Shown here: positions 18,301 to 60,697 of the stretch, piece after piece
Layout of the letters: each line of letters opens with the position of its first letter
Numbering within the stretch: position 1 is the stretch's first letter
IMG/VR virus record: IMGVR_UViG_3300037070_001217
Location: 140 to 64,139 of that record
Length of the DNA stretch: 64,000 nucleotides
DNA from: a virus
Taxonomy: Duplodnaviria > Caudoviricetes
Reading direction: 5' to 3' (one strand)
The notes under the pieces: generated by a model
The model's database searches: none
What the model saw: the letters and a program-made list of their open reading frames with translations, nothing else
What the model was told of the DNA's origin: nothing
Program-made: the position numbers and the translations under genes

Positions 18301-21300
18301 GCCAGCGTTCTTTAGCAAGGTCGAGCCGAAGCGCGAAAACTTCCCCAAGAACATTCGGGACAGGATGAATCGCGCCGACCAAGAACTCAACGCTGCCGTT
18401 CAGGAGGCGATGGAAGAGTTCACGCGATGGACGCCGGGAGGGGTCAGGATCGAAGGGGGAGCCATGAGTCCCGCCGTTCGACAGGGGCAGGGCCAGCTTG
18501 AAAGGGCGGCACGGGGCGACGACCCTGAATTGCTGGACAAAATCAGGGCGGATGTCGAACCCATTCTGGAAATCCTGCGGGAGAATTACGGCCCGGTCGT
18601 CAAGCTCTACCGCAAGCAGAGGCAGGTCGCGCAGGGCAGCAGGCGGGCCATCCTGTCATGGAGCGTGAGCTACGACTACGCGATGAGCCACATGCCAGCG
18701 CACAAGGAAGGCGTGCCGCAGGAGCATACCCTTCTCAGCGCCGAGGTGCCGCTCGACAGCGAGCATATTCTGGCGGTCACCGATCGCGGTGGCGAAGGCG
18801 AGTTCATCCTCATCAACAAGCCAGAGAATCAGGTGTTCGTGGATGACACCGGCAAGCTGGTGAGCGGCGGCCGGGTGAACGTCGGCATGTTCTCCAAGCC
18901 GCTTCCATCCGAGATAGTCGATCTGTTCGACGGCCCGGCAGAACAGCTTGTCATCCCCGGTGCCGAGAAGGTCAGCGAGAAAACGCTGGCGCAGCGCCGG
19001 GCGGAAGCGCCAATGCGGCCGAGCGTGGGACAGAAGGGCGTCGGTGAACTGCCGCTGTTTGGCGACGAGAAGAACCAAATGGCGCTGTTCTCGAAGCCGA
19101 TCAATCTCGGCGGCGACGAGAAGGCGGCGGTAAAAACGCGCATCGATGCGGCGCTCAATGAGGCCTATGCGACCCTGTTCCCCAACCCCTTGAACAATGC
19201 CGAGGTTGGCTTCGCGAACGAGAAGCAAGACGCCGTCATCATGATGCAGTTGGAGAACTATGGTGACAGCCTGTACGTGAAATGGCTGTCGGCCTATCCG
19301 CAGAAATCCGGAATGGGCACACAGGGCATGAACTACCTGAAGGAGCTTGCCACCAAGCACGATGTGCCGCTGTCGCTGACGACATGGGATCGCGGCAATA
19401 TCGGCGCAAAGAGGCTGACCAAAATCTACGAGAAGTGGGGGTTCAAGGCGGGCAAGCAGGGGCTGATGTGGTGGCATCCCGCGCCCAAGGCCGAGGACGT
19501 CGCCAAGTTCTCGAAGCCGCCCAGCGGGCCGAATGATCCTCGCTTCAGTCTGGTCGCCGCGCCGCACACCACGCAGCAGGCGGCACAGGTCACACAAGGA
19601 TTCCTCAATCGCGGCCAGCCGGTCGATCGCGCGATCCGGGTGCCGTGGAGCCTGTTTGGCGGGCTCGATGAGCAGAACCGCTGGATACCCAGCAAGCGGC
19701 TGGATGAGAAAGGCCACAGCACGCCAGCACGCCGAGAGGGCCTTGCCATTGGCGGCATCATTGGTGCGGGCATTGGCACATTCGTCGGTGGCCCGGGAGT
19801 GGGCACCATCGCTGGCTTTGCCGCTGGCGGCACTGTCGGTGCGACAATCCTTGGCTCGACGTCATGGCCGACCAACGGGGCATTCGGTTTCTTCCGCAGC
19901 TTTGCCGAGAACGCCAAGCGCGGGCTGATCACCAACTATGGGCTCGACCCTGAATACGTCCAGACGTTCCGCAAGAGCGAGCTTTACAAGGTCATGAGGG
20001 AGCGCGAAGGCGCGGAGATTCTGAAGGTGCTGCACAACGCTGGCGTCGGCACGAAGGAAGCCGAGGTCATCCAGCAAATCCTCAGTGGCGAGCCGGTCAA
20101 CGATGATGCCATGAAGCGGCTGTCGGGGCCGATCCGCAAGGCGATCGATGACATGGGGGCCGAGGCCGTCTCGCTCGGGCTGATCTCGGCGGAATCGTTC
20201 GAGCGCAATCGCGGCGCTTACCTGCACCGGGTCTATGCCAAGACCGAGGCCGATCAAGGCACCATGGCTGGCTGGGTGTCGGGCCAGATGACGAGCCGCC
20301 GCAAGAAGATCATTGGCGACGAACTGAAGGGGCGCGGCATCTTCATGGATCAGCCGGTCGACCGGATCATGCGCGATGTCGAATCGTTCCAGAAAGGCCA
20401 GCGCGGTGCCCCGGTGCTGGGGGAAAAATTCAGGATCATCGATGAGGTGAGTTCTGCCCCTGACCTGACGGGCGGCAAGCCCAAGGAAAAGGTCATGCGG
20501 CGCGTCTATTTGCCAGCTAACGAGGCGGTGCCAGCGAAGTATCAGGGCGCGAACTGGGTCGATCGTGGGACGTGGGAGGTGCGCAAGGAAGGCAAGACCA
20601 CGACGCTATGGCGCGACTACACCAAGGAAGAGCGCGGCAAGATGGGCGAAATCATCGACGCTCGCTACACGATCGCCAAGACCTTCATGCTGCTTGCCAA
20701 CGATATCGCCACCGGCAAGTTCTATCACGACGTTTCCGTGAAGGAGGAGTGGACCCAGACGAAGCCACCACCTGACGGCACATGGAAAGAGGGCAGCGAA
20801 TACAACGTCATGAACGGCCGCTACTGGGAAGACCCGGATATCCAATGGGTCAAGGTGCCCGACACCAACATTGAGAAGTCGGGCGGCAAAAAGAAATGGG
20901 GCGCGCTGGCAGGCAAATTCGTCCGGGCCGCGATCTGGCGCGACCTCAACGAGCTACACCTCGCCAACAATCCCGGCACATGGCGCGCGCTGTTCCGGCA
21001 GTGGAAGGCCAACCACACCTTCCGCCTCCCGGTCGTCCACATGAACAACGTCATGTCGAATGTGATGTTCATGGACATGGCCGACGTGCGCGCCCAAGAC
21101 CTCGTCGCCGGGATCAGGGAATATTTCAGCAGCGGGACGCACTATCAGGAAGCGCGCGACAGCGGTGCATTCGGGGCCGACGTGGTCGACCAAGAGCTTC
21201 GCGACAAGGTGCTGAAGCCGATCCTCGATGAGATCACCAAGCAGACGACCGGCAGCGGGGTGGGCAATCCCCTCCTGAACTGGGCTGGGATTCCATTCCT

Positions 21301-46920: not shown

Positions 46921-47352
46921 ATGCCAGCCCTGCCAAACCCAAAACACGAAGCCTTCTGCCAAGCCCGAGCCTTGGGCAAAACGTGGGCGCAGGCCTATGT
47001 CGACGCTGGCTACAAGCCTGATGACGGTGCGGCCTCACGCCTGTCAGGGAATGTCAGGATTCAGGTTCGCCTCATGGAATTGCAGGAGGTCCGAGCCGAA
47101 AGACATGAGGTCACCGTCGACTCGATGGCCGCCCAACTCGATGCCGATCGGGCCTTTGCATACCAGTGCAAGAACCCGGCTGCGGCTGTCTCGGCCACAC
47201 TCGCCAAGGCCAAGCTTTTCGGCTTGCTGACCGATCGAAGCGTGGTTAACGTAACACACAACTACGCCGCCATGACTGAGGAGGAACTCCGATTCGAGAT
47301 CGCCGCAATCCACGCAGAGGCGCGCGCATTGAAGGCAGGCGTGCAGCACTAG
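46921..47352 (+). CDS. terS: Terminase small subunit
   Basis: L.NPKHEAFCQ..G..QAYVDAGY..ASRL..I..RL.ELQ..AKAKLFGL. Confidence 0.85.
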   Translation: MPALPNPKHEAFCQARALGKTWAQAYVDAGYKPDDGAASRLSGNVRIQVRLMELQEVRAERHEVTVDSMAAQLDADRAFAYQCKNPAAAVSATLAKAKLFGLLTDRSVVNVTHNYAAMTEEELRFEIAAIHAEARALKAGVQH

Positions 47353-47366
47353 AAGCTCCGCTCGTC

Positions 47367-47833
47367 ATGCCAGCCTACGAGGTCGAGTTCGAGGAAAAGC
47401 CCGGCGACATGGCGCTGTTCGTCAGCGACGGCGTGCCGGTCATCCGCGCCCCACAGCATGAGGATGGCCCGGTGCCGGAAGACTTTCTCGTCCTGCTCGG
47501 CGTGGCCACCGCCTTCAACGACGATCGCTTCCGTGCCATGATGCTGGGCATCTGCCGGGACGCGCACGACAACGGCTACCTCACCGGCATCATCCACGGC
47601 CCCGACGAGGGACGGCCCAACTAGGAGGCACCATGCCAGAGCCGACCGATCCACCCATGCTGCCACCTGCGCCTCCCCCTCCCCCTGTCACGGTCCCGCT
47701 CGTCTCGCATGAGGAACTGCAGCAGCAGGTCGCGGCCGACATGGCCGCTGTGCAGGCCGAGATCGACGCCTATGAGCCGCCGCCGCCACCAATGCCGGTC
47801 GAGCCGCCCGATCCCGTGCCTCCCATGCCATGA
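47367..47833 (+). CDS. Two small genes between terS and terL (47367-47624, 47633-47833)
   Basis: Tiled ORFs; AGGAGG RBS for the second. Confidence 0.55.
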
Positions 47834-47874
47834 GGCCGGATTGAGGGGAAACATCCCGGGATGTTCCCTGCCAG

Positions 47875-48669
47875 ATGAGCGATGTCGACGTCATCGAACT
47901 TGACTTGCTGCACCGCCTGCCGCTGCCGACGCAGGCGCGCTATGCGGCGCTCACACAGACGCTGGTCGAGAAGCTTAAGCAGCGCCTGTTCTTCGACCTA
48001 TTCCCCGACGCGGATCGCTTGGGCGATGACGGTGCCGTACTCATCTATGCCCGCAGTCGTTATCCTAAACATCTCGAGTTCTTTGGAGCCGGGTCGCAGT
48101 ATCGGGAGCGATGTTTTCTCGCAGCCAATCGAGTCGGGAAAACCACATGCGGCTCCTTCGAGCTTACGGCTCACCTCACGGGTTTATATCCTGCGTGGTG
48201 GAGCGGTAAGCGCTTTGCTCACCCTGTGCGGGCTTGGGCCTGCGGCCGACGCAACGAAACCACCCGCGACATCGTCCAAGCCTCCCTGCTCGGCCCCGTG
48301 GCTTACGACGGCCTACGCAAGACACTGCAGGGCACCGGCATGGTCCCCGGCAACCTGATCGGCAGGGTGACGTGGAAGCGCGGCGTTGACGACCTCACCG
48401 ACACGGTGAGGATCAGGCACGCCAGCGGCGGCTGGAGCACATTAGGATTTAAAAGCTATGAACAAGGACGCGGTTCCTTTGAAGGTACTTCGCAGCATGT
48501 AGTATGGTTAGACGAAGAATGTCCCATAGACATCTATGGGGAGTGTCTCATTAGACTGATGACAACGGGTGGCATCATCCTTTTAACCTTCACGCCGCTC
48601 ACCGGGCTCTCCGAAACAGTCATGCAGTTCCAGCTAGCGGGCGATCGGGCGCGGCTCGGCCAGTACTAG
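47875..48669 (+). CDS. terL: Terminase large subunit, N-terminal (ATPase) fragment, P22 gp2-like
   Basis: Walker A AANRVGKT, HLTGLYP.WW.GKRF, FKSYEQGR, Walker B VVWLDEE, coupling motif LTFTPLTG; stops about 20 aa later. Confidence 0.92.
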   Translation: MSDVDVIELDLLHRLPLPTQARYAALTQTLVEKLKQRLFFDLFPDADRLGDDGAVLIYARSRYPKHLEFFGAGSQYRERCFLAANRVGKTTCGSFELTAHLTGLYPAWWSGKRFAHPVRAWACGRRNETTRDIVQASLLGPVAYDGLRKTLQGTGMVPGNLIGRVTWKRGVDDLTDTVRIRHASGGWSTLGFKSYEQGRGSFEGTSQHVVWLDEECPIDIYGECLIRLMTTGGIILLTFTPLTGLSETVMQFQLAGDRARLGQY

Positions 48670-48701
48670 ACACCAGCTTGTTCTGTGGTACGCTGATGGA
48701 A
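48667..48701 (+). promoter_or_regulatory. Candidate promoter for a leaderless HNH transcript
   Basis: TAGACA-16-TACGCT with TG extended -10; ATG begins at the 7th nt after the -10. Confidence 0.45.
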
Positions 48702-49204
48702 TGGAATGGCGCATCTGCCCACGGTTCCCAGAGTACGAAGTGAGCGAGTACGGTCAGCTTCGACGCTGCGTGCAAGCGAAGGGTGGCGTTGTTGGTCGCC
48801 TGCTTAAGGGGCATGTGCGACCAGACGGCTACCTGATGTACATCGTTCGCCGCGATGGCCGGTCGTGGTATCCGCGAGCCCACCAGCTTGTGCTTGAGGC
48901 GTTCGTCGGTCCCAAGCCCTTTCCCAAGGCGGAAGCGCGGCACAAGGATGGCAAGCGTGTTCTCGACCACTACAGCAACCTCGAATGGGGATCGAGCGCC
49001 GACAACAAGGCCGACATGGTGAGGCATGGCACGCGCATAAGCGGCGAGAAGCACCACCGCGCCAAGCTGACGGCGGCTGATGTCAAGGCGATCCGCAAGG
49101 CTGCGGCGGCAGGTGAAGTGCATCGAGTGATTGGTGAGCGGTATGGTGTCCAGCAACCGGCTGTCTCACGCATCGTGCGCGGTGAGCGATGGGGGCACAT
49201 GTAG
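48701..49204 (+). CDS. NUMOD4-HNH homing endonuclease with C-terminal HTH
   Basis: EWR..YEVS..G, H.LV.EAF.G..RHKDG..NLEW..N..D, GE.H..AKLT..V..IR. Confidence 0.9.
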   Translation: MEWRICPRFPEYEVSEYGQLRRCVQAKGGVVGRLLKGHVRPDGYLMYIVRRDGRSWYPRAHQLVLEAFVGPKPFPKAEARHKDGKRVLDHYSNLEWGSSADNKADMVRHGTRISGEKHHRAKLTAADVKAIRKAAAAGEVHRVIGERYGVQQPAVSRIVRGERWGHM

Positions 49205-52010
49205 ATGATTGAACAGATTTTGGTCCCGGCCGAGTTCTGGGGGACGGTGTCGGTGGAGGAGTTCGCTGAGATCATCAAGAACGACGGTTGCTTGGACGCT
49301 GACCAGTGCGCTCGGCTGTGGGAGATGGCGAACTGGGAAGACCCGGTGCCGGATACGGTTCAGGTGATGGTGGAGCGGGAGCAGTTCGAGCAATGGCTCA
49401 CCGCTATCGGCCCCAAGCCCCAGCCCAGACGACGGGGGCGGGTGAGGCGATGAGCGCTGTCCCTGAACGCTTCTGCAAGAAGTGCCTTGGTTTTGGTTAC
49501 GTCGATAGCAAGGAACGTCACAGCGACGGCAGCGGGCATCCGGCGTGGGCCGTCCGGTGTTCCGAATGCCAGCCAGATAACCTTATGGAGACAGACGACA
49601 GGGGGAAGCCAGATGAGCGATGATGACGACGACCTGTTCAGCTATCACGCCCGATCAAGCGACCCGGACACCAGCCACGAAGCAGTGCCACACAACATCA
49701 GCCAACAGGCGTGGCGTGTACTGCACGCCTATCGCAGCGGGCTGGCACTGCTCGATGAGCACGCCTACGAGCTTGTCGGCATGGACGGCCACCAGCGTTG
49801 CAGTGACCTACGCCGCTGGAAGTTCATCGAGCGCTGCGGACGGGGTAGGACAGCCAAGGGCAAGGCAGGCTACCTGTGCAGGATCACGCCAGCGGGACAC
49901 GCCTTCCTCACGGCAGGGGGTGGAGAGCCGATCCCGATGGGGCCAGCGCCCAAGCCCGACGCCAACGAGGTCGCCTTCTCCTTCGACTACGCCTACGATG
50001 ACGATGAACACTGAGATAGACTGGCGCGATCGGCTGCTGCAGCGCCTGAACCGTCGCCTGCATCCGGGGCCACCAGTGGTCAATGCGGCCCGCGACGAGG
50101 AGATCGTGGCACGCAGCAAGGCGGGCGTTCCGCTCGAAGCGCTTGCCAAGGAGCACTACCTGACGCGGGTGCGGATATACCAGATATGCCGCAAGGCCTA
50201 CGTGAAGGAGCACGGGACACCGCCGCCGCGACGGCCGCCGCCGACGCTGGAGCGCAACACCGAGATTTACCGGCGCTTCGTGGCTGGTGAGCGCCCCGCC
50301 GATCTTGCTCGGGCATTCAAGTTGTCACGCGGCATGATCAGCATCATTGTCTGGAAGCGTGGGCGATATGAACAGGAGAGGAGAACGACATGAACGCAGT
50401 AGCAGACAACGTAAGGGCACGCCTCGCTCAGGTTCGGGCGGCAATAGACGAGGTCGTTAACGATCTTGAGATCGCTGGCGACGACCTGAAGGACCGGGTG
50501 GCGGCCAAGCTCAAGGACGTCCACTCGGAACTGGGCGAGGTGATCGAGGAGCTTGAGGCGGCAACCGAGGAAGAGGACGACGAGCCCGCCGAATGAGCGA
50601 ATACTCCTACCAGAACAGCTTGGTGATGGAGCACCTAATAGCGCGAGGCTCGATCACGCCTCGCACGGCGCTCGACCAATACGGCTGCTTCCGGCTGGCG
50701 GCGCGCATCTACGATCTGCGGCAGGCGGGGCACGACATCATCACCACCCGGATACGCAACAGCGAGGGCAACCCGTATGCTCAGTACGTGTTGCTCAAGC
50801 AGGCGCAGAGGGCGGCGTGAGGCGCGAATGGATCGCGGACCTCAATCCGGATGCGCTGTTCGCGGACGGCTACGACGCGGCTCTGATTGGGATAGCCGAG
50901 CGCTGCGGCCAGCCGACGCTGGCGGTGTACTCGGTCCCGGCCATGATCAACGTACTGGTCGAGCGTGATGGCATGAGCGAGGAGGAAGCGGCTGAGTTCA
51001 TTAGCTTCAACACGCTCGGCTGCTGGGCCGGTGAGAACACACCGCTGTTCTTCTGGCCGCTGAAGGATGACGATGCACCCGGGTAGCCTGTACGACGAGC
51101 GGGACGCCAAGATCGTGGCCAAGCGCAAGCGGGGCTTCACGTTGTCGGCGCTGGCCTCCGAGTTCGGCCTGTCGAAGTCACGCATCCGGCAGATCGAATA
51201 CCGGGCCAAGCTGGATATCGAGATCGCGGCGCTCGGCCTGACGCGGAAGGAATACCTGACGCTGATGCGCAAGCGCCGGGTAAGCGTTGGCAACTACGAG
51301 TTTGCGGTCGCCTTGCTTGCGTTTGCTGACCACAAGGCGAAGCGATGAGCCTGACGACTCGCGGCCTTGGCGGGTGGCTGCTCGCGTCGATCCTGTTCTG
51401 GCTGGTGCTTGGCTTTGTGGTGTGGGTGCTGTTCTGGTAGGCTGTTTGCGGGGCTCTCGATCGCGCCCTTCCCGTGGATGACTGCCTTCCGAGCCCCCCG
51501 CAAAGATGCAGCCACGGATGCGACCGGGAGCCCCACCGACTGGACAGGGACGACTGAAATGACGAAGCGCATCAAGGTTGCGCACCTGCCGGGCAATAAG
51601 GGCGCGGTGGTCAATCGCAAGGGCCGGATTACACTGGCGAAGGTGGGGAAGAAGCATCATGTCTGAGAGCGCACCGTCCGCGATCCCGACCGACTTCTTC
51701 ACGGAGGCCGGGTTCGTGAAGTCCTGCGGGATGAGTTCGCATCCGCGCCCCGGCGACACGGTGGTGATTGACGCCAAGATGTACAGGGTCAAGGAACTGT
51801 CATGGGACTTTGACAGCGGCGGCATGGCGCTGCTGGTGCGCATCAATGTCGAGTAAGGGTGGCGTCGACATCTCGGCGGTGCGAGGCAATACGGGCCTGA
51901 TCAAGGTGACGCTGGCTGGCCAGACCGACGACATCGCGATCACCTTCAAGATCACGGACGAAGAGGCGCGCAAGCTGGTCAAGGTGCTGGAAGGCCAGAT
52001 CAAGCGTTGA
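49205..52010 (+). CDS. Twelve small genes between the terL halves (starts 49205, 49450, 49613, 50004, 50390, 50593, 50817, 51073, 51345, 51559, 51659, 51846)
   Basis: Tiled, coupled ORFs. 50004-50393 and 51073-51348 carry sigma-region-4/Mor-like HTHs; 50593-50820 is winged-HTH-like (GSIT..FRLAARIYDLR..G..I). Confidence 0.65.
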
Positions 52011-52190
52011 GGAAAGGGCCGCTCATACCGGCCCGCAATCGCAGGAGCCTAGCGCCTGCGTGCTGCCGGTTCACCCCGGCACAAAGGGACGGCGGTGCGA
52101 CAAGGTTTCGGCCTTCCGGGCTAGGCTTCGATCGGGCCGCCGTCCTGCCAGAACAAAGCCGGATTTTTGATCAGTGGGGGGACTGATCAG
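52011..52190 (+). ncRNA. Candidate structured RNA (multi-hairpin, 3' CCA)
   Basis: Five adjacent stems in an ORF-free gap; one long stem is followed by GCCA. Confidence 0.3.
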
Positions 52191-52211
52191 TCGGAACAGG
52201 AGCAGAACGAA

Positions 52212-52610
52212 ATGCCAATGAAGTACGACCCGGACACCGGGATACCGCGCTATGTGCCTGATATTGGTGAGGAATTGGAGGAAGGCGTTACACCTGCCCC
52301 CACGGTTGTAACGTCAAAGTCCGACTTGTTCAAAGGCGACAAGCCGCTGACCAAGGAGATGTACGAGCGGCTGCGTGATGGGCCGACTGTCGCCAATTCC
52401 GAATCCTATACGGTTGGCGTGCCCACTGACGAAGCGGACAAGATGCTGTCCGACGCGATCAAGAGCGCCAAGCCAGCCAAGCTCGACAAGGACGTTGCCA
52501 CCGACGAGGAGGTGGACGTGCTCGAGAAGTTCGCCCGCGAGCACACGGTCAGGCACTGGCCCGAGCTACTGCGGCTGATCAATAGGTTGCGGCAGGCCGA
52601 GGCCAAATAG
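52212..52610 (+). CDS. Hypothetical protein
   Basis: AGGAG RBS before ATG 52212. Confidence 0.6.
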   Translation: MPMKYDPDTGIPRYVPDIGEELEEGVTPAPTVVTSKSDLFKGDKPLTKEMYERLRDGPTVANSESYTVGVPTDEADKMLSDAIKSAKPAKLDKDVATDEEVDVLEKFAREHTVRHWPELLRLINRLRQAEAK

Positions 52611-52617
52611 CCGCCTG

Positions 52618-52646
52618 TTGTGTTTTCCGGCCGCTTGGCGGATATT
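52618..52646 (+). promoter_or_regulatory. Candidate late promoter
   Basis: TTGTGT-17-GATATT upstream of the structural operon. Confidence 0.45.
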
Positions 52647-52676
52647 CTCGCGCCAACGGCCTTCGACACTACGTCC

Positions 52677-52705
52677 ATGCCCGCCCCTCACCCGGCGGGC
52701 ATTTT
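52677..52705 (+). terminator. Intrinsic terminator in the late leader
   Basis: ATGCCCGCC/GGCGGGCAT stem ending in a T run. Confidence 0.65.
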
Positions 52706-52718
52706 GCTTATCTGAGGG

Positions 52719-53030
52719 ATGCTGATGCCGCTGTTCATCACTGAATACCGCGACCTTGCGCGCGATATCGGCTCGAACTTCATCGCCGCTGGCATGGAGC
52801 CATCGATCGCTGAACAGGCGATGACGCTATCGGGCACGACGGCGCAGTCTGCCGTCTTCAATGCCCAGACCGCCTTCGTGATGGTGCATGCGCAGGAGGC
52901 GGCCTGTGTGGCATGGGGCACCAATCCAACTGCGACCACGGTCAAGCAGCGCATGGCGGCGGGTGAAACGCGCTATGTCGGGGTGCCGTCTGGCAGGAGC
53001 TTCCGGCTCGCTGCGATCTTAGGAGTTTGA
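52719..53030 (+). CDS. Small putative virion protein
   Basis: GAGGG RBS; beta-rich, with SAVFN..T.FV..C..WG.NPTA motif. Confidence 0.65.
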   Translation: MLMPLFITEYRDLARDIGSNFIAAGMEPSIAEQAMTLSGTTAQSAVFNAQTAFVMVHAQEAACVAWGTNPTATTVKQRMAAGETRYVGVPSGRSFRLAAILGV

Positions 53031-53033
53031 GCC

Positions 53034-53585
53034 ATGATGAGCGGTTCTCGCGGGGCGGCCGGTCCCGATCCTTTCACCAGCCTGCTTGGCATTGTCGGTG
53101 ATCCGAAGGGTACGAAGGAACGCATCGAGCAGTTGCAGAAGGCGACGGCAGCGAACGAGGAATCGCTGGAGGCGCTGGCCATCAAGCGGGCGGAACTCGA
53201 TGCGCTGGCGATCAAGCTGGACAACCGCGAGGCCGACATCGAGAAGGCGCAGGGCAAGGTGGACGACCAGATCGCGGCGCTTGATGCGCGGGAGAGGGTG
53301 GTCGCCCGCAACGAGCAGGATCAGGGCGACATCGTGCGCAAGCTTGCGGCCGATCGGAGCGATGCGGCCAAGACGCTTGCCGACAGTCAGGCGACGGCGA
53401 GCGAACTGCATAAGGCGCTGGCGGCGCGCGAGGCGGAATTGAACGCGCGGGCTGCCGACCTCGAGACGAAGGCCCATGCGCTGGAGTCGGAGCGCGCCAA
53501 GATTGCGGAGTATGAGGCCGACGTGACCAAGCGTGCGGCCGATCTCGACAAGCGGATAGCAGCGATGCGGGAACTGGTTGGCTGA
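53034..53585 (+). CDS. Coiled-coil protein
   Basis: AGGAG RBS; heptad-rich A/E/L/R sequence. Confidence 0.7.
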   Translation: MMSGSRGAAGPDPFTSLLGIVGDPKGTKERIEQLQKATAANEESLEALAIKRAELDALAIKLDNREADIEKAQGKVDDQIAALDARERVVARNEQDQGDIVRKLAADRSDAAKTLADSQATASELHKALAAREAELNARAADLETKAHALESERAKIAEYEADVTKRAADLDKRIAAMRELVG

Positions 53586-53821
53586 TGGGGGATGGCAGCG
53601 CCGGTCTGGCCGTAGGCACCGTCAAGGTAGTCACCACCAGCAATGGCGGGCGGCCACCTGAGTTCTTCGCGGAACGCATCATGGATCGGCTGATGTACGT
53701 CAGCGACAACATCCCAGAGCCGCTCAAGGATCAGGTGCTGTCGTATCAGGTTCAGATGCACCAGATCATTCTTGCGGGGATCAAGGCAGCGATCGAGAGC
53801 GATCGCATCTACCGCAAATAG
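53585..53821 (+). CDS. Conserved small phage protein
   Basis: V.TT.N.G.PPE..AER..VSD..DQ..AI.SDR motif. Confidence 0.7.
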   Translation: MGDGSAGLAVGTVKVVTTSNGGRPPEFFAERIMDRLMYVSDNIPEPLKDQVLSYQVQMHQIILAGIKAAIESDRIYRK

Positions 53822-53834
53822 GAAGGACTTCAGG

Positions 53835-54284
53835 ATGGCTCCGACTCAAGCGATATGCACGACGTTCAAGCAGGAATTGATGACGGGCCTGCACAACTTC
53901 ACGATCAGCACGGGCCACGCCTTCAAGATCGCACTGGTGACGAGCGCCAGCACGATCTCGGGTGCGACGGACCACTACAGCGGCGGCACCAACAACATCA
54001 GTTCCGAGGTGGCGAACGGCGGTGGCTACACGACAGGCGGCACGGCGCTGACCAACGTGACGCCCACGGTGTCGAGCACGACGGCGCTGACCGATTTCAG
54101 CCCTGACCCGGTGTGGACGACGTCAACGATCACGGCCAGAGGCGCGCTGATCTACAACACGACGAGCACCAACCGCTCGGTGCTTGTGCTGGATTTCACC
54201 AGCGACAAAAGCTCGAGCGCAGGTGATTTCACTGTGGTCTTCCCGGCTGCGGATGCGTCCAACGCGATCATCCGAATTGTCTGA
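53835..54284 (+). CDS. Conserved phage structural protein (MAxTQAxCTxFKQEL family)
   Basis: FKIAL..EV..GYT.GG..TITARGALIYN..VLDF..DKSS..G.FT..FP.ADA.NAIIRI. Confidence 0.75.
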   Translation: MAPTQAICTTFKQELMTGLHNFTISTGHAFKIALVTSASTISGATDHYSGGTNNISSEVANGGGYTTGGTALTNVTPTVSSTTALTDFSPDPVWTTSTITARGALIYNTTSTNRSVLVLDFTSDKSSSAGDFTVVFPAADASNAIIRIV

Positions 54285-54357
54285 TTGGTCATGATGTGCC
54301 GATCGATGAAGGGGCTCATGGCATAAGGCTCCCCGTCAGCGAGAGGGCGGGCGAGCC

Positions 54358-57198
54358 GTGAGCACGGCACCCGTAGTCCTCGTCGCCGGAACCGGCGCGG
54401 CTGCGGCCACGCACACCACGGCATCGTTCTCGCCAGCGGCCGACCGGCGGCTGGTAGCATACATCGCGTCGTTCAAGGCGACGGTGGGTGTAGCTACGCC
54501 CACGATATCTGACACTGGCGGCCTCACATGGACGCTGCTGGCCAGCTACGTGATGTCGACGTTCAGCAATCCCGACACACGCGGCGATTGGTACATTTCA
54601 TCTGACACGGGCGGCGGCACGCCAGCCGCGAGGACCGTCACGGTCACCTCGACCGGAGCCGCCTCGATCGGCGTTATGGTCGCGTCGGTCCTGACGTCGG
54701 ACGTGTCGGGGTCGATCGTCCAGTTTGCGACTGGGGAAGACCTCAGCGCGGGCGATCCGCAGATAACGTTCGGCTCTGCTCCGGGCGCGACGAACATCGT
54801 GCTGCTCGGTACGTCGCATGTCGGTGGCAGCACGGTCACTGGCCCGACTGGCTACACGTCGCTCTGCAACTCCGTCCACTCTGCCTCGCGCAAAATTGCG
54901 TGTGCGTATGACATCACGTCGGCAAGTCAAAGCCCGCAGTACACGTCGCTCAACGCCCGCGTGATCATGCTCGGCATCGAGCTAGCGCCGCCATCCGCTG
55001 GCGCTGTCAACGTCAACGCGACGACAAATAGCGCCACCATCACCTGCGGCGACGTCACGGTCACCGCGAACCAGACCGTCAGCGTCGATGCCGCGACCAA
55101 TCTGGCAACGGTTAGCGTCGGGGATGTCACCGTCACTGCCGGGGCTGGGGCGGTCAACGTCAGTGTCGACGCCACCGGCAACAGCGTCACGGCCACGCTT
55201 GGCGATGAATCGATAGTCGGCAAAGCAAATACCGATGCGGCCACTAACCTCGCCACTGTCAGCGCCGGGGATGTGACGGTCACCGGCAAGGCCAGCGTCG
55301 ACGCCACTGGCAATCAAGCGACGATCAGTGTCGGCAACGTCACGGTCAGCACCGTCTCTGCCGTCAACGTCAGCGTCAACGCGACGGGCAATTCGCTGGC
55401 GATCGGCACCCAGACTGCGACGGTTGTCGGCAAGGCCAGCGTCAGCGCCACGACGAATCTGCTGACGGTGACAGCCGGTAGCGTTTCGTTCCCGGTCCCG
55501 GTCAGCGTCAATGTGACGGGTGAGTTCCTTGGCGTTGGGCAGGGCACGGTCACGGTCACGGCGGGCGGCGCGCTTACTGGCAATGCCGCCACCATTTCAG
55601 TCGGCACCGCGACCGTCACTGCGGTGACCACCGTCACCGTCTCTGCCATGACGGCGCTCACCGCCAGCAGCGGTCGCGGCACGGTCAGGCTTGTCTTTGG
55701 CAATCCGCTCGGTCCAACGCTGGTGGCGAATCTTGCCTCGATCACCAACCCGTTCGTGGCTGTGAATGTCGCGGTGGACGTGCAGGCTGGTGACCTGATC
55801 TACGCCGTCCTGTCGGAGCAGACCAACATCACCGTGACGGCGATGTCGGACAATCTCGGCAACACCTACACGGCGCTGAGTGCGGGATCGGATTGCGGGG
55901 CATCTACCAGTCGGGCGTTCTATGCGCCGGTCACTGTTGCCGGGATGCTGACGCAGGTATCGGCCGCCTGCACGTCGAGCGGCGACAATGCCGTCATGCT
56001 GGCGCAGGCCTTCCAAGGGCCGTTCACGACGCCGTCGCTCGATGCCAATCCCGGCAATGCTGTCAACGCCGACATCGTGTCGCCCTATGTCGGTCCATCG
56101 ACCGGCACGCTGACACAAGCCGACGAACTGCTGGTCGCATGGCTAACTCGGCCCGACAGCACCGGCATAGTCCCTGTCGCGCCGCTGCTTGTGCTTGCGC
56201 AATTCAACTCCGGAACGGTCATTCGCACCGCCCTGTCCTATCGGGTGCTGGCCTCGACCAGCAGTGTTGCGCCGTCGTGGACGTCCGCCACCGATCCGAC
56301 CCAGACCATAATGGGGGCGACCAGCTTCAAGAAGAGCACGGGCGGCGGCCTCAACGTCAACGTCGATGCAACGGGCAGCAGCGTCACGGCGAGCGTCGGC
56401 ACGGCTACGGTCACGGCGGTCCAGAACGTCACTACGAATGCTGCGACCAATCTGGCCACGGTGAGCGCGGGCACGGTGACGATCGTCGGCAAGGCGCGGG
56501 CCTTGGCCGATACCAACCTGCTGACGACCGCAATCGGTGACGAAACGGTCACCGGCACGGCCAATGTCACGACGGCCAGCACTGGGCTGACGATCTCGCT
56601 CGGCAACGTCACGGTTGGCGAGGTCACTGGCGTTTCGGTCGACATCGTCGCCAGCCCTGCTCTTGCGATAAGTGCAGGCACGGTCAGCGTCACGCAAGGT
56701 TTTGGCGTTTCCGTCTCGACGTCGATGACGTTCAGCCTGATTTCGATCGGCAACGAGACGGTGCAGTACGGCGCGGGCGCATCTCCCGCCGCCATGCCTG
56801 AGCTGACGATGCCGGTTGCGGGCACGCTCGCGGTCAACACCAAGGTCAACTACACGGTCTTCAACGTCCCGCAGATGACGATCGCGGCGGGCATGGTGAC
56901 GGTTGTCGGCACGGCCAACACGACGATCGCGGCCGTCCCCGGCATGACGATCAGCGGCGGCGACGAGACGATCGGGCTCGGTGTGCAGGTCACTGTGACG
57001 GCCATGCCAGCGCTGGTCGCATCGACCGCTTTGGCTGACGGTGTGACGATAACCGGCAGCGCGAGTATCATGGTGACCGGCAACCAGATGAATTTGCAGT
57101 TGGGGAATGTGTTTGTTTCGATAAGTGGAGGTGGAGTGGTGGCCGAAACGCGCGGCGAGGGGCAGATGCTTGTCATGTCGCGGCTGATGGGCAATTAG
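54358..57198 (+). CDS. Large repeat-rich fibre/appendage protein
   Basis: 946 aa with V/T/A-rich ~22-aa repeats (V.ATGN..T.S.G.VTV) flanking two globular beta domains. Confidence 0.75.
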   Translation: MSTAPVVLVAGTGAAAATHTTASFSPAADRRLVAYIASFKATVGVATPTISDTGGLTWTLLASYVMSTFSNPDTRGDWYISSDTGGGTPAARTVTVTSTGAASIGVMVASVLTSDVSGSIVQFATGEDLSAGDPQITFGSAPGATNIVLLGTSHVGGSTVTGPTGYTSLCNSVHSASRKIACAYDITSASQSPQYTSLNARVIMLGIELAPPSAGAVNVNATTNSATITCGDVTVTANQTVSVDAATNLATVSVGDVTVTAGAGAVNVSVDATGNSVTATLGDESIVGKANTDAATNLATVSAGDVTVTGKASVDATGNQATISVGNVTVSTVSAVNVSVNATGNSLAIGTQTATVVGKASVSATTNLLTVTAGSVSFPVPVSVNVTGEFLGVGQGTVTVTAGGALTGNAATISVGTATVTAVTTVTVSAMTALTASSGRGTVRLVFGNPLGPTLVANLASITNPFVAVNVAVDVQAGDLIYAVLSEQTNITVTAMSDNLGNTYTALSAGSDCGASTSRAFYAPVTVAGMLTQVSAACTSSGDNAVMLAQAFQGPFTTPSLDANPGNAVNADIVSPYVGPSTGTLTQADELLVAWLTRPDSTGIVPVAPLLVLAQFNSGTVIRTALSYRVLASTSSVAPSWTSATDPTQTIMGATSFKKSTGGGLNVNVDATGSSVTASVGTATVTAVQNVTTNAATNLATVSAGTVTIVGKARALADTNLLTTAIGDETVTGTANVTTASTGLTISLGNVTVGEVTGVSVDIVASPALAISAGTVSVTQGFGVSVSTSMTFSLISIGNETVQYGAGASPAAMPELTMPVAGTLAVNTKVNYTVFNVPQMTIAAGMVTVVGTANTTIAAVPGMTISGGDETIGLGVQVTVTAMPALVASTALADGVTITGSASIMVTGNQMNLQLGNVFVSISGGGVVAETRGEGQMLVMSRLMGN

Positions 57199-57214
57199 CG
57201 AAGGGAACTGTACT

Positions 57215-57433
57215 ATGATAGGCCTAATCATAAACCTGATCATATACCTGCTGATTCTCGGAATCTTGTACTACTTATTTGTGTACGTAGTGGACAGCTT
57301 TATCCCAGAGCCGCCCCAGAGAATCCTGAAGGTGGCGGCCATAGTTGTACTATGTATCATCGTGATCCTGCTTTTGCTGGACTTGATAGGCGGGAGCGGC
57401 AGCTTCCACCTGCCTAAGATCACGACGCAATGA
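57215..57433 (+). CDS. Small two-TM membrane protein
   Basis: Two hydrophobic helices joined by IPEPPQRILK; AT-rich codons. Confidence 0.75.
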   Translation: MIGLIINLIIYLLILGILYYLFVYVVDSFIPEPPQRILKVAAIVVLCIIVILLLLDLIGGSGSFHLPKITTQ

Positions 57434-58182
57434 TGGGCGAGGTTTCTCCATCACGCTACGTCGTGCAGGCCGGATGGGATTCGGTCCCGCATCTGGACGA
57501 GAAGACCAAGAAGGAGCTTCTCGACTCGACGCCGGAATACCTGCGCGATGCGCGCTCGAAGGGCGAGCCGACGATGGGCTCGGGTGTGATCTACCCGATC
57601 CCGATCGGCGACATCGAGGTCAAGCCGTTCGCCATCCCGTTTGGCTGGAAGAAGGGCTATGCGCTCGATGTCGGCTGGAACCGGACGGCCGCGCTGTGGG
57701 GCGCGCAGAACCCGGTCGACGGCACGATTTACTTCTACAGCGAGCACTACAAGGGGCAGCAACTGCCGGTCGTCCATGCCTCGGCCATCAAGACCCGGGG
57801 CGAATGGATTCGCGGCGCGATCGATCCGGCCTCGAAGGGCTCGAGCCAGAAGGACGGCAAGCAGCTAAAGGCCGAGTACCAGAGCTTGGGGCTGATCCTG
57901 ATCGACGCCAACAACGAACTCGAGGCGGGGCTGATCGCCTGCTGGCAGGCGCTGGCGCTCGGGCAGATCAAGATTTTCTCCACGCTGCAGTCCTTCAAGG
58001 CGGAATACCGCGTGTACCAGCGCGACGAGCGTGGCCGCATCGTGGATGGGCAGGCCGATCACCTGATGGACTGCATGCGCTACCTCTGGCGCACATGGGA
58101 CAGGGTGGCGGGATTGCCGTCGCTGAAGCACAGGCAAGGCGGTGCTGGCATTGGCACTGCCGACAAGAGAGCAGGGTACTGA
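57430..58182 (+). CDS. terL: Terminase large subunit, C-terminal (lid + RNase H-like nuclease) fragment
   Basis: WDSVPHL..RDARSKGEP.MGSG.IYP, ALDVGW, Y.RDE.G.IV..DHLMD..RY; ATGA-coupled to the upstream gene. Confidence 0.92.
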   Translation: MMGEVSPSRYVVQAGWDSVPHLDEKTKKELLDSTPEYLRDARSKGEPTMGSGVIYPIPIGDIEVKPFAIPFGWKKGYALDVGWNRTAALWGAQNPVDGTIYFYSEHYKGQQLPVVHASAIKTRGEWIRGAIDPASKGSSQKDGKQLKAEYQSLGLILIDANNELEAGLIACWQALALGQIKIFSTLQSFKAEYRVYQRDERGRIVDGQADHLMDCMRYLWRTWDRVAGLPSLKHRQGGAGIGTADKRAGY

Positions 58183-58183
58183 G

Positions 58184-60697
58184 ATGGCTGACCTGATGGT
58201 AATGAACCCGCCGCAGCAGGGGCAGCAACTGCCGGAATCCCTGCAGCAACGGCCACGGCCGCCATCGAGGGAGAGGCTGAAAGAGATCATTGGCCGCATG
58301 GAAGCGGAGGTGACGAGCCGGATCGGCAAGCGCACCAACTTGGAGGATCGCTGGATCGCGGCGCTCGAGCAGTATCACGGCCGCTATGACCCGGCGACGG
58401 CGAAGGTGCTGTTCGAGGAGCAGCGATCGGGGCTGTTCATCAATGCGACCCGGCCCAAGACCGACGCGCTGGCGGCCCGCCTGAAAGACCTGCTGTTCCC
58501 GACCGACGAAAAGAACTGGGGCATTTCCCCGACGCCGGTTCCGCAACTGGCCGACAGTGCGGAGCGCGCGGCGGCTGACTTCCGTCAGAAGCAGGAGGCG
58601 GCGACGGCTGCCGCAGAGCAGGCGCAGCAGCAACCGATGGCACCGGCCGGGCCACCGCCACCGCCACAGGGGGCACCAGCGCCAGAGGGGGCCCCAGCGC
58701 CACAGGGAGAGCCGCCACAGGGGCTCGGAGGTCCGCCGCCACCACAACAGCCGGGACCGCCGCAAGGCGCTCCTCCAATGGCGCAGCAGGCCGCAGCGCT
58801 GCAGCAGCAGGCCGACGAAGCCAAGGAAGCGGCGGTCGCGCTCAACGCTCGGCTCGAGGAAGGCCGCAAGCGCGCCGACCTGATGGAGAAGGAGATCGAT
58901 GATCAATTGACGGAATGCCGCTATCAGTCCGTCAAGCGCGAGCAGATCGATTGCGCGGTCAAGCTCGGCACCGGGGTGACCAAGGGTCCGGTGACAGGCG
59001 ACAAGGTGCGGCGCGGCTGGAAGCAGGACGACCAGACCGGCGAGCACAAGCTTGACGTCTCCACCGGCCAGCAACCCGCGTTCAGATACGTCGACCTGTG
59101 GGGGTTCTTCCCCGACATGGACGCCACCTGCATCGAGGAGTCGAACGGCACCTTCGAGCGCCATTTGATGAATCGCAAGCGGCTGCGCGATCTGCAGCAT
59201 CTCGAGGGGTTCGACAAGGACGCCATTCGCCGGTTGCTGCAACTGGCCCCATCGACTGCGGCCCCGGCCTACCTTGCGCAGTTGCGCAACATCCGCGCGG
59301 CCACGCAGCAGGTGACGGGCGATCTTTATCATGTGTTCGAATATTACGGCCCATTGGAACCGGCCGACATGCAGGACATCGCGCTGACGATGCTGCAGAG
59401 CCGGGACCAGACCCTCACCGGGATTGCCGACGAGGCGCTGAAGCAGGTGGACGAGATCGATCCGCTGACCTCGGTCAATGCCTGCATCTGGTTCTGTCAG
59501 GGCGAGATTCTGAAGTTCGCGCTGTACCCCTACGACAGTGGCGAGTGCATCTATTCGGTGTTCAATCTGGTCAAGGACGAAGCCTCGATCTTTGGCTACG
59601 GCATGCCCGACATCATCCGTGATCCGCAGTCGGCCATGAATGGGGCGTTTCGCGCGATGATGGACAACGCTGGCGTGTCGTCAGGTCCGCAAATTGTCAT
59701 CGACATGCAGAACATCGAACCGGAGGACGGCGACTACCGGCTCAAGCCGCGCAAGATTTGGACGGCCAAGAACGGGCTGCAGAAAGAGAACCCGCCATTC
59801 CAGCTATTCCACATCGAAACCCGGCAGGAGGAACTGACCAACATCATCATGCTATGCAGCCAGTTCATCGACATGATGAGTTCGATGCCGCAGATCATCC
59901 AAGGCCAGATGGGCGAGGTTGGCGCGCACCAGATTCAGCAGACGGCGACCGGGATGGCGCTGCTGCACAATTCGGCCAACACGGTGTTTCGCGCGATCGT
60001 CAAGAACTTCGATGACGATGTGACGACGCCCGACATCCGGCGTTCCTACGACTGGAACATGCAGTTCAACGAGAAGCCCGAGATCAAGGGCGACTACGAG
60101 GTCGACGCGCGCGGCAGTTCTGTCCTGCTGATGCGCGAGATGCAGGCGCAGAACCTGATGGTGATCGCCGTCCAGCTAGGCGGGCATCCGATCTTCGGGC
60201 CGATGCTGCGCAATCGCGAACTGCTGCGCAAGATATTCCAGAGCTACATGATCCCGGCCGACGAGGTGATGCTGTCGGACGACGAGATCGACGCCGTGCT
60301 GGCGGCATCCGCGCAGGACAACGAGGCGGCGGCAGCGGCGCAGGCGGCGATGCAGGTGGAGCAGGCCAAGGCTGCGCTCGAGAAGGAGAAGATGCAGATG
60401 CAGGCGGCGCTGGCCAATCAGGCCAACCACTCGAAGGAAGTGATCGCCCAGAAGCAGTACGACGCGCAGATGAACTTGATGGCGGCCAAGCTCAACATGA
60501 GCCTGCAGGAATTGCAGGCGATGCTGGCTGGCAAGCAGATGGATCATCAGTCGAAGGAGCGCATTTTCGCGAGCGAGGTGGCGATCGAGCAGCGCAATGC
60601 GGAGGCGGCTCGGGCGCGCGGCGAAGTGCCGAAAGGCTCGGGCGGGTACGTCTCGGCGGGAGGTAAACCCAACGGCAAGAAGGCGACCGCGAAATGA
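58184..60697 (+). CDS. Portal protein
   Basis: LFINATRPK..LLFPTDEKNWGI.PTP, GTGV.KGP, FFPD, MMDNA..SSGPQ, TA.GM..L..K.FDD; follows terL. Confidence 0.9.
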   Translation: MADLMVMNPPQQGQQLPESLQQRPRPPSRERLKEIIGRMEAEVTSRIGKRTNLEDRWIAALEQYHGRYDPATAKVLFEEQRSGLFINATRPKTDALAARLKDLLFPTDEKNWGISPTPVPQLADSAERAAADFRQKQEAATAAAEQAQQQPMAPAGPPPPPQGAPAPEGAPAPQGEPPQGLGGPPPPQQPGPPQGAPPMAQQAAALQQQADEAKEAAVALNARLEEGRKRADLMEKEIDDQLTECRYQSVKREQIDCAVKLGTGVTKGPVTGDKVRRGWKQDDQTGEHKLDVSTGQQPAFRYVDLWGFFPDMDATCIEESNGTFERHLMNRKRLRDLQHLEGFDKDAIRRLLQLAPSTAAPAYLAQLRNIRAATQQVTGDLYHVFEYYGPLEPADMQDIALTMLQSRDQTLTGIADEALKQVDEIDPLTSVNACIWFCQGEILKFALYPYDSGECIYSVFNLVKDEASIFGYGMPDIIRDPQSAMNGAFRAMMDNAGVSSGPQIVIDMQNIEPEDGDYRLKPRKIWTAKNGLQKENPPFQLFHIETRQEELTNIIMLCSQFIDMMSSMPQIIQGQMGEVGAHQIQQTATGMALLHNSANTVFRAIVKNFDDDVTTPDIRRSYDWNMQFNEKPEIKGDYEVDARGSSVLLMREMQAQNLMVIAVQLGGHPIFGPMLRNRELLRKIFQSYMIPADEVMLSDDEIDAVLAASAQDNEAAAAAQAAMQVEQAKAALEKEKMQMQAALANQANHSKEVIAQKQYDAQMNLMAAKLNMSLQELQAMLAGKQMDHQSKERIFASEVAIEQRNAEAARARGEVPKGSGGYVSAGGKPNGKKATAK

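What the first reader, a model, noticed from the sequence alone, without database searches (positions are those of the whole stretch)
47875..58182. Genes-in-pieces packaging motor: terL split inside the ATPase domain, with 8.76 kb and about 20 genes between the halves
Seen: 47875-48669 (264 aa) has Walker A, Walker B and the TFT coupling motif, then ends at SETVMQF plus 11 extra residues. 57430-58182 (250 aa) resumes at SRYVVQAGWDSVPHL and carries the nuclease motifs. Together they total 514 aa with no apparent gap or overlap, and there is no other terL in the window. Known: P22 gp2-type TerL is one ~500-aa chain in which TFTP..F is followed directly by the last ATPase strand and the lid. The break is therefore not at the ATPase-nuclease linker. 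Aeromonas phage Aeh1 nrdA, split by the HNH gene mobE, is a precedent for a functional split enzyme. Inference: the motor is assembled from two separately translated polypeptides. The C-half is ATGA-coupled to its upstream gene and lies behind a separate putative late promoter, so motor assembly could be timed by late expression of the lid-nuclease piece.
Basis: partly seen in the sequence, partly recalled or inferred. Interest (0 to 1): 0.88.

Follow-up and report, generated by a model that had tools for sequence, protein, structure and literature searches.

The report
Phage packaging motor in two genes
This soil phage, like many of its relatives, encodes its DNA-packaging enzyme as two separate genes cut inside the ATPase engine, here 8.8 kb apart, so the motor probably works as a two-chain protein and the gap between the halves is a favoured place for extra genes.

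Summary
ORF 47875-48669 carries Pfam Terminase_6N positions 1-145 of 215. ORF 57430-58182 carries the rest of the ATPase domain plus the nuclease. No other TerL match lies in the 64,139-nt record.

The split is not private to this genome. The same breakpoint occurs in 65 of 92 distinct relatives, with gaps from overlapping stop/start codons to about 12 kb. It also occurs in 39 of 80 bacterial-genome loci.

- Both halves evolve under purifying selection, dN/dS 0.05-0.18.
- Contigs from two other runs bridge both junctions.
- I found no intron and there is no room for an intein.
- A complex model places C-half residues 8-16 beside the Walker A strand. That pass may only reflect likeness to solved one-chain TerL.

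Best reading: an obligate two-chain TerL, with the intergenic joint acting as a cargo site.

- The HNH gene is a late arrival, not the cause of the split.
- The proposed late-promoter timing is unsupported.
- My seven literature searches found no paper describing this split.

The parts
46921..47352 (+). small terminase-like gene that heads the block ending in the TerL N-half
   Evidence: phrog_51 terminase small subunit, E 5.9e-11. Pfam Terminase_2 scores 19.7 bits, below its cut-off of 26.1. It is syntenic in relatives.
47875..48669 (+). TerL N-half (264 aa): N-terminal arm and the ATPase core with Walker A, Walker B and the TFTP motif, followed by a 12-aa tail
   Evidence: Terminase_6N positions 1-145 of 215, 60.4 bits. 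phrog_31467, E 3e-80. Invariant G88 K89 D213 E214 E215 T238 P241. dN/dS 0.054-0.179 in the 5 of 7 comparisons that could be computed.
48701..49204 (+). free-standing HNH/NUMOD4 homing-endonuclease-like gene, 32 nt after the N-half stop
   Evidence: phrog_59 HNH endonuclease, E 9.8e-32. Pfam HNH_3 scores 24.3 bits against a cut-off of 24.8, and NUMOD4 20.5 against 23.4. No homologue lies at this place in the 27 relatives printed.
49205..52610 (+). variable block of about 11 small ORFs, several of them DNA-binding regulators
   Evidence: Pfam gives Mor at 25.8 bits (cut-off 24.9), HTH_39 at E 7.5e-17 and Sigma70_r4 at 25.1 bits. DNA homology to the closest relative is lost from 48651 to about 51344, and is only patchy up to 52150.
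52677..52702 (+). terminator-like hairpin between the variable block and the conserved module
   Evidence: 9-pair stem with 7 G-C pairs, followed by a T-rich tail. The total count of such sites in the region is at chance level: 7 found, 6.8 expected.
52719..54284 (+). conserved four-gene module (103, 183, 78 and 170 aa), function unknown, possibly tail-fibre related
   Evidence: Homologues lie in the same order in 9 of the 27 relatives printed. DNA is 80% identical to L009. The last gene matches phrog_644. The Atlas lead to a Gp80 fibre domain scores only 0.85, which is a lead and no more.
54358..57198 (+). 946-aa repeat-rich protein with a hypervariable centre; candidate host-range (fibre or spike) protein by inference
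   Evidence: No Pfam family. Relatives have proteins of 693-1262 aa at this place, with patchy 28-60% identity. DNA homology to the closest relative is lost over 54288-56877, apart from a 125-nt piece.
57215..57433 (+). 72-aa hydrophobic protein gene whose stop codon overlaps the C-half start codon
   Evidence: ATGA overlap read directly from the sequence. A homologue lies upstream of the C-half in 18 of the 27 loci printed, ending within a few nt of its start in most of them.
57430..58182 (+). TerL C-half (250 aa): last ATPase core strand (about residues 8-14), lid (about 16-47) and RNase H-like nuclease (about 48-232)
   Evidence: phrog_5653 and phrog_2 positions 421-596. 4dkw_A matches at E 1.2e-15 for the single sequence and 1.9e-57 for the profile. 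Invariant W16 H21 R42 D80. dN/dS 0.064-0.183 in 8 of 8 comparisons.
58142..60697 (+). portal gene that overlaps the end of the C-half
   Evidence: phrog_332 at E 4.7e-25 and phrog_1216 portal at E 1.8e-11. It follows the C-half directly (within about 0.6 kb) in 19 of the 27 relatives printed; in L093/L094 about 3.4 kb intervene and in L046 the portal hit lies about 4 kb downstream at the locus end.

Best explanation
The phage makes its large terminase as two separately translated chains that must assemble to form one functional protomer.

- Chain A (264 aa) holds the N-terminal arm and most of the ASCE ATPase core: Walker A, Walker B with the catalytic Glu, and the TFTP coupling motif.
- Chain B (250 aa) holds the last parallel core strand, the lid with an invariant Arg, and the nuclease.

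The cut lies in a variable surface loop. In relatives that loop is either continuous or holds an overlapping stop/start junction. Once two genes existed, the joint between them became an intergenic site where genes could accumulate. In this lineage the joint holds an HNH gene, regulators, a conserved module with a hypervariable large protein, and a small membrane protein to which chain B is translationally coupled.

Shown: two ORFs, a shared breakpoint, purifying selection, no intron or intein signature, and junctions confirmed by independent contigs.

Inferred: assembly by strand complementation, a composite active site, and any timing by separate transcription.
For: 1. Same breakpoint in relatives. 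65 of 92 distinct IMG/VR and GenBank rows are split at N residue about 252 / C residue 1-8. Of these, 31 are adjacent, 18 have gaps up to 800 nt and 16 have longer gaps. In bacterial genomes 39 of 80 loci are split.
2. The window sits in a clade of 8 rows, all with long gaps of 4.7-12.2 kb, with SH-aLRT support of 100 (coordinates).
3. Adjacent forms share an overlapping stop/start junction of the type NTG-CCT-GA. Their C-halves begin MPE(I/V)(S/T)PSKY. The window's C-half begins with the homologous MMGEVSPSRY, and long-gap relatives keep this start.
4. dN/dS is 0.054-0.179 for the N-half (5 of 7 comparisons computable, 2 saturated) and 0.064-0.183 for the C-half (8 of 8). The N-tail motif D(R/K)A.LG is conserved in the clade.
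5. Rfam finds no family in the window. It finds none at the break in 14 relatives with gaps. It does find a group I intron at 99.9 bits at the Walker A site of phage DES1, which serves as a positive control.
6. Only 12 + 8 residues lie outside the conserved blocks, and no intein family was found.
7. Contigs from runs X4 (0 differences) and X9 bridge both 48669 and 57430. No contig joins the N-half to the C-half.
8. A relative with direct terminal repeats, rated 100% complete, has a 3.3-kb gap. Its only phrog_2 match is the N-half, so it holds no intact one-chain TerL.
9. The complex model scores 0.77, with the best of 3 controls at 0.00. That mark was reached by 58 of 80 solved complexes and by 2 of 110 mismatched pairs. 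The three runs agree in at least 68% of contacts, and the partner's pLDDT is at least 77. C-half residues 8-14 pair in register with N-half residues 76-82, the strand before Walker A. C-half residues 41-48 touch N-half residues 83-89.
Against: - There is no protein or RNA evidence. All runs are Logan contigs, and the one RNA run is too thin to say anything.
- The complex pass may come from the model's memory of solved single-chain TerL. It shows likeness, not binding.
- The record is estimated 76% complete, so an intact terL in missing sequence is not formally excluded.
- Pfam Terminase_6C on the window's C-half is below its cut-off, 16.3 against 22.6 bits, although relatives pass.
- For adjacent forms, recoding into a single chain is not excluded.
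- The tree is a quick one, arbitrarily rooted and carrying long-branch warnings. Whether the split or the fused state is ancestral is therefore open.
Confidence: 0.8

Rival explanations
1. The halves act separately. Chain A would be a stand-alone packaging ATPase, and chain B an independent nuclease or headful cutter that need not bind chain A.
For: Both halves are independently conserved and may lie on different transcripts, given the terminator-like hairpin at 52677-52702. From recall, not from any call: phi29-type motors work without an active nuclease.
Against: Chain A lacks Terminase_6N profile positions 146-215. Chain B carries them: in L005 residues 3-58 match positions 156-211. W16, H21 and R42 in that part are invariant across 50 C-halves. 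The model places this segment inside the ATPase core.
Confidence: 0.08
2. The RNA or the protein is rejoined, by a giant or trans-acting intron, by a split intein, or by ribosomal bypassing, so that one chain is made after all.
For: terL genes broken by group I introns, by inteins and by proposed bypassing are all in print (passages seen in PMC12880540, PMC3670811 and PMC10732093). 'Fractured' terminase genes with split inteins are also reported (PMC2677866, passages).
Against: No Rfam family is found in the window or at the break in 14 relatives, and the positive control was found. The gap is 8,760 nt with 18 or more ORFs. Only 12 + 8 non-conserved residues remain and no intein domain is present. 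The stop and start codons are conserved. No joined contig was seen.
Confidence: 0.04
3. The gene is dead or the contig is wrong: a decaying or defective phage, or a chimeric metagenome assembly.
For: The record is linear and estimated 76% complete. Run X1, the best holder, may be the source sample itself.
Against: dN/dS is 0.05-0.18 in both halves. The same architecture appears in many contigs from other samples and in a complete genome with direct terminal repeats. Contigs from X4 and X9 bridge both junctions.
Confidence: 0.03

Closest known systems
Aeromonas phage Aeh1 nrdA split by the HNH gene mobE (named in a passage of PMC2677866; further details are recalled)
   Same: An essential enzyme gene is cut into two ORFs without an intein or intron. 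An HNH gene sits in the break, and the two chains are expected to reassemble.
   Different: Here the split predates the HNH gene and is shared by a very large clade. The gap reaches 12 kb and carries a conserved gene module. The enzyme is the packaging motor, and the cut passes through its ATPase core sheet.
'Fractured genes' of Dassa et al. 2009 (PMC2677866; abstract and passages of sections 10, 11, 13, 15 and 16 read)
   Same: [quoted passage not shown] Phage terminase is one of the eight host enzyme types listed. Their model foresees loss of the endonuclease and drifting apart of the parts.
   Different: The defining split intein is absent here. Their Supplementary Table S1 and Figure 1, which give the terminase break point, were not visible to me.
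terL interrupted by group I introns (Jug phages, PMC12880540, passages; phage DES1) or by inteins (Vibrio N4-like phages, PMC3670811, passages)
   Same: The same gene family is riddled with selfish elements. In this very clade the Walker A site carries an intron (DES1) or 1.1-kb in-frame inserts (L030, L062).
   Different: Those forms restore a single chain by splicing. The break described here has no ribozyme or intein signature, and it lies at a different site, after the TFTP motif.
Streptomyces phage Hau3 terminase in three ORFs, read by proposed translational bypassing (PMC10732093, passages)
   Same: A terminase coding sequence is broken into several frames in a viable phage.
   Different: The gaps there are 10-nt blocks that a single ribosome skips. 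An 8.76-kb gap with 18 or more genes cannot be bypassed.

Membership tests
Large terminase, Terminase_6N / 6C (P22-type) family | P-loop ATPase with Walker A, Walker B and the coupling motif; Pfam Terminase_6N above its cut-off | tested here: met
   60.4 bits against a cut-off of 22, but only profile positions 1-145 of 215. The invariant motif residues are present.
Large terminase, Terminase_6N / 6C (P22-type) family | C-terminal RNase H-like nuclease domain | tested here: met
   C-half residues 48-220 align with the solved nuclease chain 4dkw_A at E 1.2e-15, and the profile at E 1.9e-57. Pfam Terminase_6C on the window's own copy is below its cut-off, 16.3 against 22.6 bits. Relatives pass.
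Large terminase, Terminase_6N / 6C (P22-type) family | ATPase and nuclease on one polypeptide | tested here: not met
   A stop codon at 48667-48669 and a new start at 57430, with 8,760 nt between them.
Fractured gene sensu Dassa et al. 2009 | split-intein halves at the two broken ends | tested here: not met
   Only 12 residues after N position 252 and 8 residues before the conserved C block. No intein or Hint family at E up to 0.01.
Fractured gene sensu Dassa et al. 2009 | free-standing homing endonuclease gene between the parts, same strand and order | tested here: met
   HNH/NUMOD4 ORF at 48701-49204. It is absent from the gap in the 27 relatives printed.
Intron-interrupted terL | group I or group II ribozyme in the intervening sequence | tested here: not met
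   Rfam gathering search gives 0 matches in the window and 0 at the break in 14 relatives. The DES1 intron was found as a control.
Endonuclease-split enzyme without intein (Aeh1 NrdA type) | the two chains associate and restore activity | not testable with these tools
   Only a model is available: score 0.77 against 0.00 for the best control, and the pass may be from memory.

The most novel reading that the evidence does not exclude
A very large clade of phages and prophages of Proteobacteria and other soil bacteria runs on an obligately heteromeric packaging motor. Its ATP site is completed in trans by a separately encoded strand-lid-nuclease chain. The joint between the two genes is the clade's main integration site for host-range and anti-defence cargo. 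Splitting would make ATPase activity depend on the chain that is co-expressed with portal and capsid. It might also blunt host sensors that recognise whole TerL.
Probability: 0.2. Interest if true: 0.8.

Novelty: new variant of a known kind. Interest (0 to 1): 0.62.

Why it matters
TerL is the universal hallmark gene of tailed phages and is treated as a single chain in structural work, phylogenetics and annotation.

- **Mechanism.** A natural, widespread form cut through the ATPase core would give motor researchers a ready-made two-piece system. It could be used to ask what the last core strand and the lid contribute to ATP hydrolysis and to coupling.
- **Annotation.** TerL-based marker pipelines may miscount or truncate this clade. 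PHROGs files the N-half family under 'unknown function'.
- **Genome plasticity.** The joint carries varied cargo in relatives:
  - a Tad2-like anti-Thoeris domain (L079);
  - GDSL esterase domains (L006, L017);
  - a GH5 glycosidase domain (L016);
  - an HNH remnant (L053).

  It is therefore a predictable place to look for host-range and counter-defence genes.

Tried and rejected
- **PDB by sequence, N-half.** No hit for the single sequence. The profile gave only chance hits, E 0.38 and 0.64.
- **Pfam on the window's C-half.** No family at E up to 0.01.
- **Promoter scan.** One sigma-70-like site, at 57043-57071, against 2.3 +/- 1.4 expected. DNA homology to L085 and L094 begins downstream of that site. 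I therefore do not use it.
- **RNA run X21.** A few 151-nt contigs lie on the gap genes and on 57506-57799, and none on the N-half. DNA carry-over is possible and contigs cannot show absence, so I draw no conclusion on expression.
- **Weak joints.** These include 47797 to 50218 and 48396 to 49868, with sides of 21-28 nt. I read them as other strains. None links the two halves.
- **Atlas searches.** They returned unnamed viral clusters and one 0.85 lead to a Gp80 fibre domain. I treat that as a lead only.
- **N4-like idea.** I first took the 3341-aa ORF for an N4-type virion RNA polymerase. I did not test either reading.
- **Literature.** Seven searches found no paper describing a terL split at this site without an intron or intein. 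Passages read in 10.1101/672428, PMC10580990, PMC9004378, PMC3821669, PMC13601566 and PMC7824862 said nothing on it. PMC10055350 and PMC11766414 were seen only in search listings. Supplements were not opened. Table S1 of PMC2677866 and figure S14 of PMC12880540 could bear on the novelty claim.
- **Rows left out of the counts.** Loci holding only one half could not be classified. L001 is the window itself. In one search, 9 of 80 loci had no C-half within the locus.
- **A useless row.** In one search one ORF (50005-50393) was given in the wrong frame, so that row tells nothing.
Full report
**What is there**

The window is almost all of a 64,139-nt IMG/VR virus record. The record is linear and CheckV puts it at 76% complete. 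Public contigs that hold it come from soil metagenomes.

ORF 47875-48669 (264 aa) and ORF 57430-58182 (250 aa) exist as described.
- The first matches Pfam Terminase_6N at 60.4 bits (cut-off 22), but only on profile positions 1-145 of 215. It matches phrog_2 positions 266-404.
- The second matches phrog_2 positions 421-596.
- phrog_2 finds only these two places in the record.
- The N-half ends with TAG at 48667-48669. An HNH/NUMOD4 ORF starts at 48701.
- The C-half ATG at 57430 overlaps the TGA of a 72-aa hydrophobic ORF.

**Where the cut lies**

- In contiguous relatives Terminase_6N runs to profile positions 209-214, and Terminase_6C follows.
- In one split relative (L005) the C-half's residues 3-58 match Terminase_6N positions 156-211.
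- An alignment of the window's halves with four contiguous relatives shows them abutting in a variable loop. That loop lies between '...TFTPL.G.SE.V..F' and 'K(Y/F)(V/L)V.A.WDD.PHL'.
- The solved nuclease-domain chain 4dkw_A starts at C-half residue 48.
- Residue 231 of the 430-aa chain 5oe8_A aligns with C-half profile position 44.

About 47 residues of the C-half therefore belong to the ATPase domain.

**The split is a clade trait**

I searched IMG/VR with each half and got 118 loci.

For every locus that held both halves I located the N-frame stop and the C-frame start. After adding three GenBank phages and removing duplicates there were 92 distinct rows:

| State | Rows |
|---|---|
| Contiguous | 27 |
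| Split, halves adjacent (C match starts at most 25 nt after the N stop) | 31 |
| Split, gap up to 800 nt | 18 |
| Split, longer gap | 16 |

- In the window's own clade (8 rows, SH-aLRT 100) every member has a long gap. The gaps are about 4.7, 7.4, 8.8 (the window), 8.9, 9.2, 11.2, 11.5 and 12.2 kb.
- The adjacent forms are not sequencing frameshifts. Different lineages share an overlapping stop/start junction of the type NTG-CCT-GA and a C-half that begins MPE(I/V)(S/T)PSKY. The window's C-half begins with the homologous MMGEVSPSRY.
- GenBank already holds one such pair. Record MW202785.1 annotates both CDS as 'large terminase protein'.
- A search of 5.8 billion proteins, limited to 145-462 aa, found 3,683 clusters at E up to 1e-10. 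The 120 best are all 236-283 aa long. They include entries from Aminobacter, Mesorhizobium and Roseovarius genomes.
- Of 80 loci from bacterial genomes, 32 are contiguous, 17 adjacent, 10 short-gap and 12 long-gap. Nine have no C-half within the locus.
- On a quick, arbitrarily rooted tree the split/contiguous label needs at least 8 changes, 3 of them forced by well-supported branches.
- Some contiguous linkers resemble split junctions, for example L134, L158 and L041. The two states therefore seem to interconvert. I cannot say which state is ancestral.

**Is it real and functional?**

- Against seven and eight clade members, dN/dS is 0.054-0.179 for the N-half (5 of 7 computable; dS is saturated in the other 2). 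It is 0.064-0.183 for the C-half (8 of 8).
- The N-half's tail after the conserved block, with the motif D(R/K)A.LG, is itself conserved in the clade.
- Contigs from run X4 cover 48493-48870 and 57240-57605 without any difference. A diverged strain in run X9 has one contig running from the N-half through the HNH region into the next genes. Another X9 contig runs from the 946-aa gene through the C-half into the portal gene. Run X1 may be the source sample and is not counted.
- A relative with direct terminal repeats, rated 100% complete, carries the split with a 3.3-kb gap and no intact TerL.

**Rejoining mechanisms**

- Rfam's gathering search finds nothing in the window.
- It finds nothing at the break in 14 relatives with gaps of about 150-3,300 nt. 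In the same call it finds a group I intron (99.9 bits) at the Walker A site of Xanthomonas phage DES1, which shows the method works in this group.
- Only 12 + 8 residues lie outside the conserved blocks and no intein family is hit. This excludes the split-intein 'fractured gene' form of PMC2677866.
- An 8,760-nt gap with at least 18 ORFs is out of reach of ribosomal bypassing as described for phage Hau3 (PMC10732093).

**How the chains may fit**

A complex model scored 0.77 (median of three runs), with the best of 3 controls at 0.00. That mark was reached by 58 of 80 solved complexes and by 2 of 110 mismatched pairs. The three runs agree in at least 68% of contacts, and the partner's pLDDT is at least 77.
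- The tightest contacts pair C-half residues 8-14 in register with N-half residues 76-82, the strand leading into Walker A.
- This is what a parallel edge strand of the ASCE sheet would do. The strand order is recalled, not tested.
- C-half residues 41-48, around the invariant R42, touch N-half residues 83-89, the P-loop.

These are halves of a fold that has been solved as one chain. The pass may therefore be from memory: it shows likeness, not binding.

**What fills the gap**

- DNA homology with the closest relative (L009/L082: 86% and 96% protein identity) stops at 48651, just before the N-half stop. It returns patchily from 51344 and solidly over 52150-54288. It is lost again over 54288-56877, inside the 946-aa gene, and then returns through the C-half.
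- The HNH gene and the small ORFs up to 52610 are therefore lineage-specific. They include Mor-type, HTH_39 and sigma-70 region 4 domains.
- A terminator-like hairpin follows at 52677-52702.
- Next comes a conserved run: four small genes, a large variable protein, the 72-aa membrane protein, the C-half, the portal gene and the major head gene (phrog_1357, E 1.6e-58).
- Even relatives with only 59% N-half identity keep the first of these small genes in the gap, directly after the N-half in L101 and about 0.4 kb after it in L006.
- In other lineages the gap holds a Tad2-like domain, an HNH remnant, GDSL esterase domains and a GH5 cellulase domain.

The joint thus behaves as a cargo site. The HNH gene sits at the edge of the variable DNA and is a late arrival, not the cause of the split.

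- The two halves may well be on different transcripts, given the hairpin and given that the C-half is coupled to the late structural run.
- The only sigma-70-like site is within chance expectation. I have no usable RNA data.
- This part of the interpretation stays an inference.

**Comparison and verdict**

The kind is known: phage genes cut in pieces by selfish DNA, whose parts reassemble (Aeh1 NrdA; fractured genes, PMC2677866).

What is new, as far as seven literature searches show, is a TerL cut through its ATPase core without an intron or intein. The form is stable across a very large clade, and its halves can drift 12 kb apart around a cargo site.

I rate it a new variant of a known kind, with interest 0.62. 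It stays high because a natural two-chain packaging ATPase would surprise motor specialists and is directly testable in prophages of cultured bacteria.

Noticed in passing
L120 (Xanthomonas phage DES1, OK624832.1) 3119-3325: A group I intron (Rfam RF00028, 99.9 bits) interrupts terL right after the Walker A exon. A 165-aa ORF follows it. The record annotates the pieces as separate CDS.
   Followed up: partly
L030/L031, L062 and L079, inside the N-half: An insertion of about 1.0-1.3 kb sits at N-half residue about 89 (the Walker A site). It is in the same frame in L030 and L062, which suggests an intein. Rfam found no intron in L030 or L062; L079 was not scanned.
   Followed up: no
L034 (IMG/VR contig, 11.4 kb held): Three successive copies of both terL halves lie on one contig, at about 754-2099, 5046-6251 and 8339-9638. 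This could be an assembly of strain variants or a real tandem. It remains unexplained.
   Followed up: no
L079 10653-11222; L016 9562-12045; L006 11461-12894; L017 3557-4891: Cargo between the terL halves in relatives: a Tad2-like anti-Thoeris domain (E 2.1e-24), an 828-aa protein with a GH5 cellulase domain (E 9.4e-41), and two proteins with GDSL lipase/esterase domains.
   Followed up: partly
window 49620-50393 and 51067-51348: Mor-family late-activator-like domains and a sigma-70 region 4-like protein are encoded just upstream of the structural run that contains the C-half. phrog_532 and phrog_836 match two places in the first ORF.
   Followed up: no
window 12383-22408: A 3341-aa ORF. I tested nothing about it.
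   Followed up: no
L142, L165 and L177 (bacterial genome loci): An N-half with 10 kb of downstream sequence and no C-half in the locus. The C-half may lie more than 10 kb away or be missing.
   Followed up: no
window 57215-57433: The 72-aa two-segment hydrophobic protein gene upstream of the C-half is markedly A+T-richer than its surroundings. The 57001-58000 bin has GC 0.588, against 0.649 for the bin before it (56001-57000) and 0.673 for the bin after it (58001-59000). Its function is unknown.
   Followed up: no
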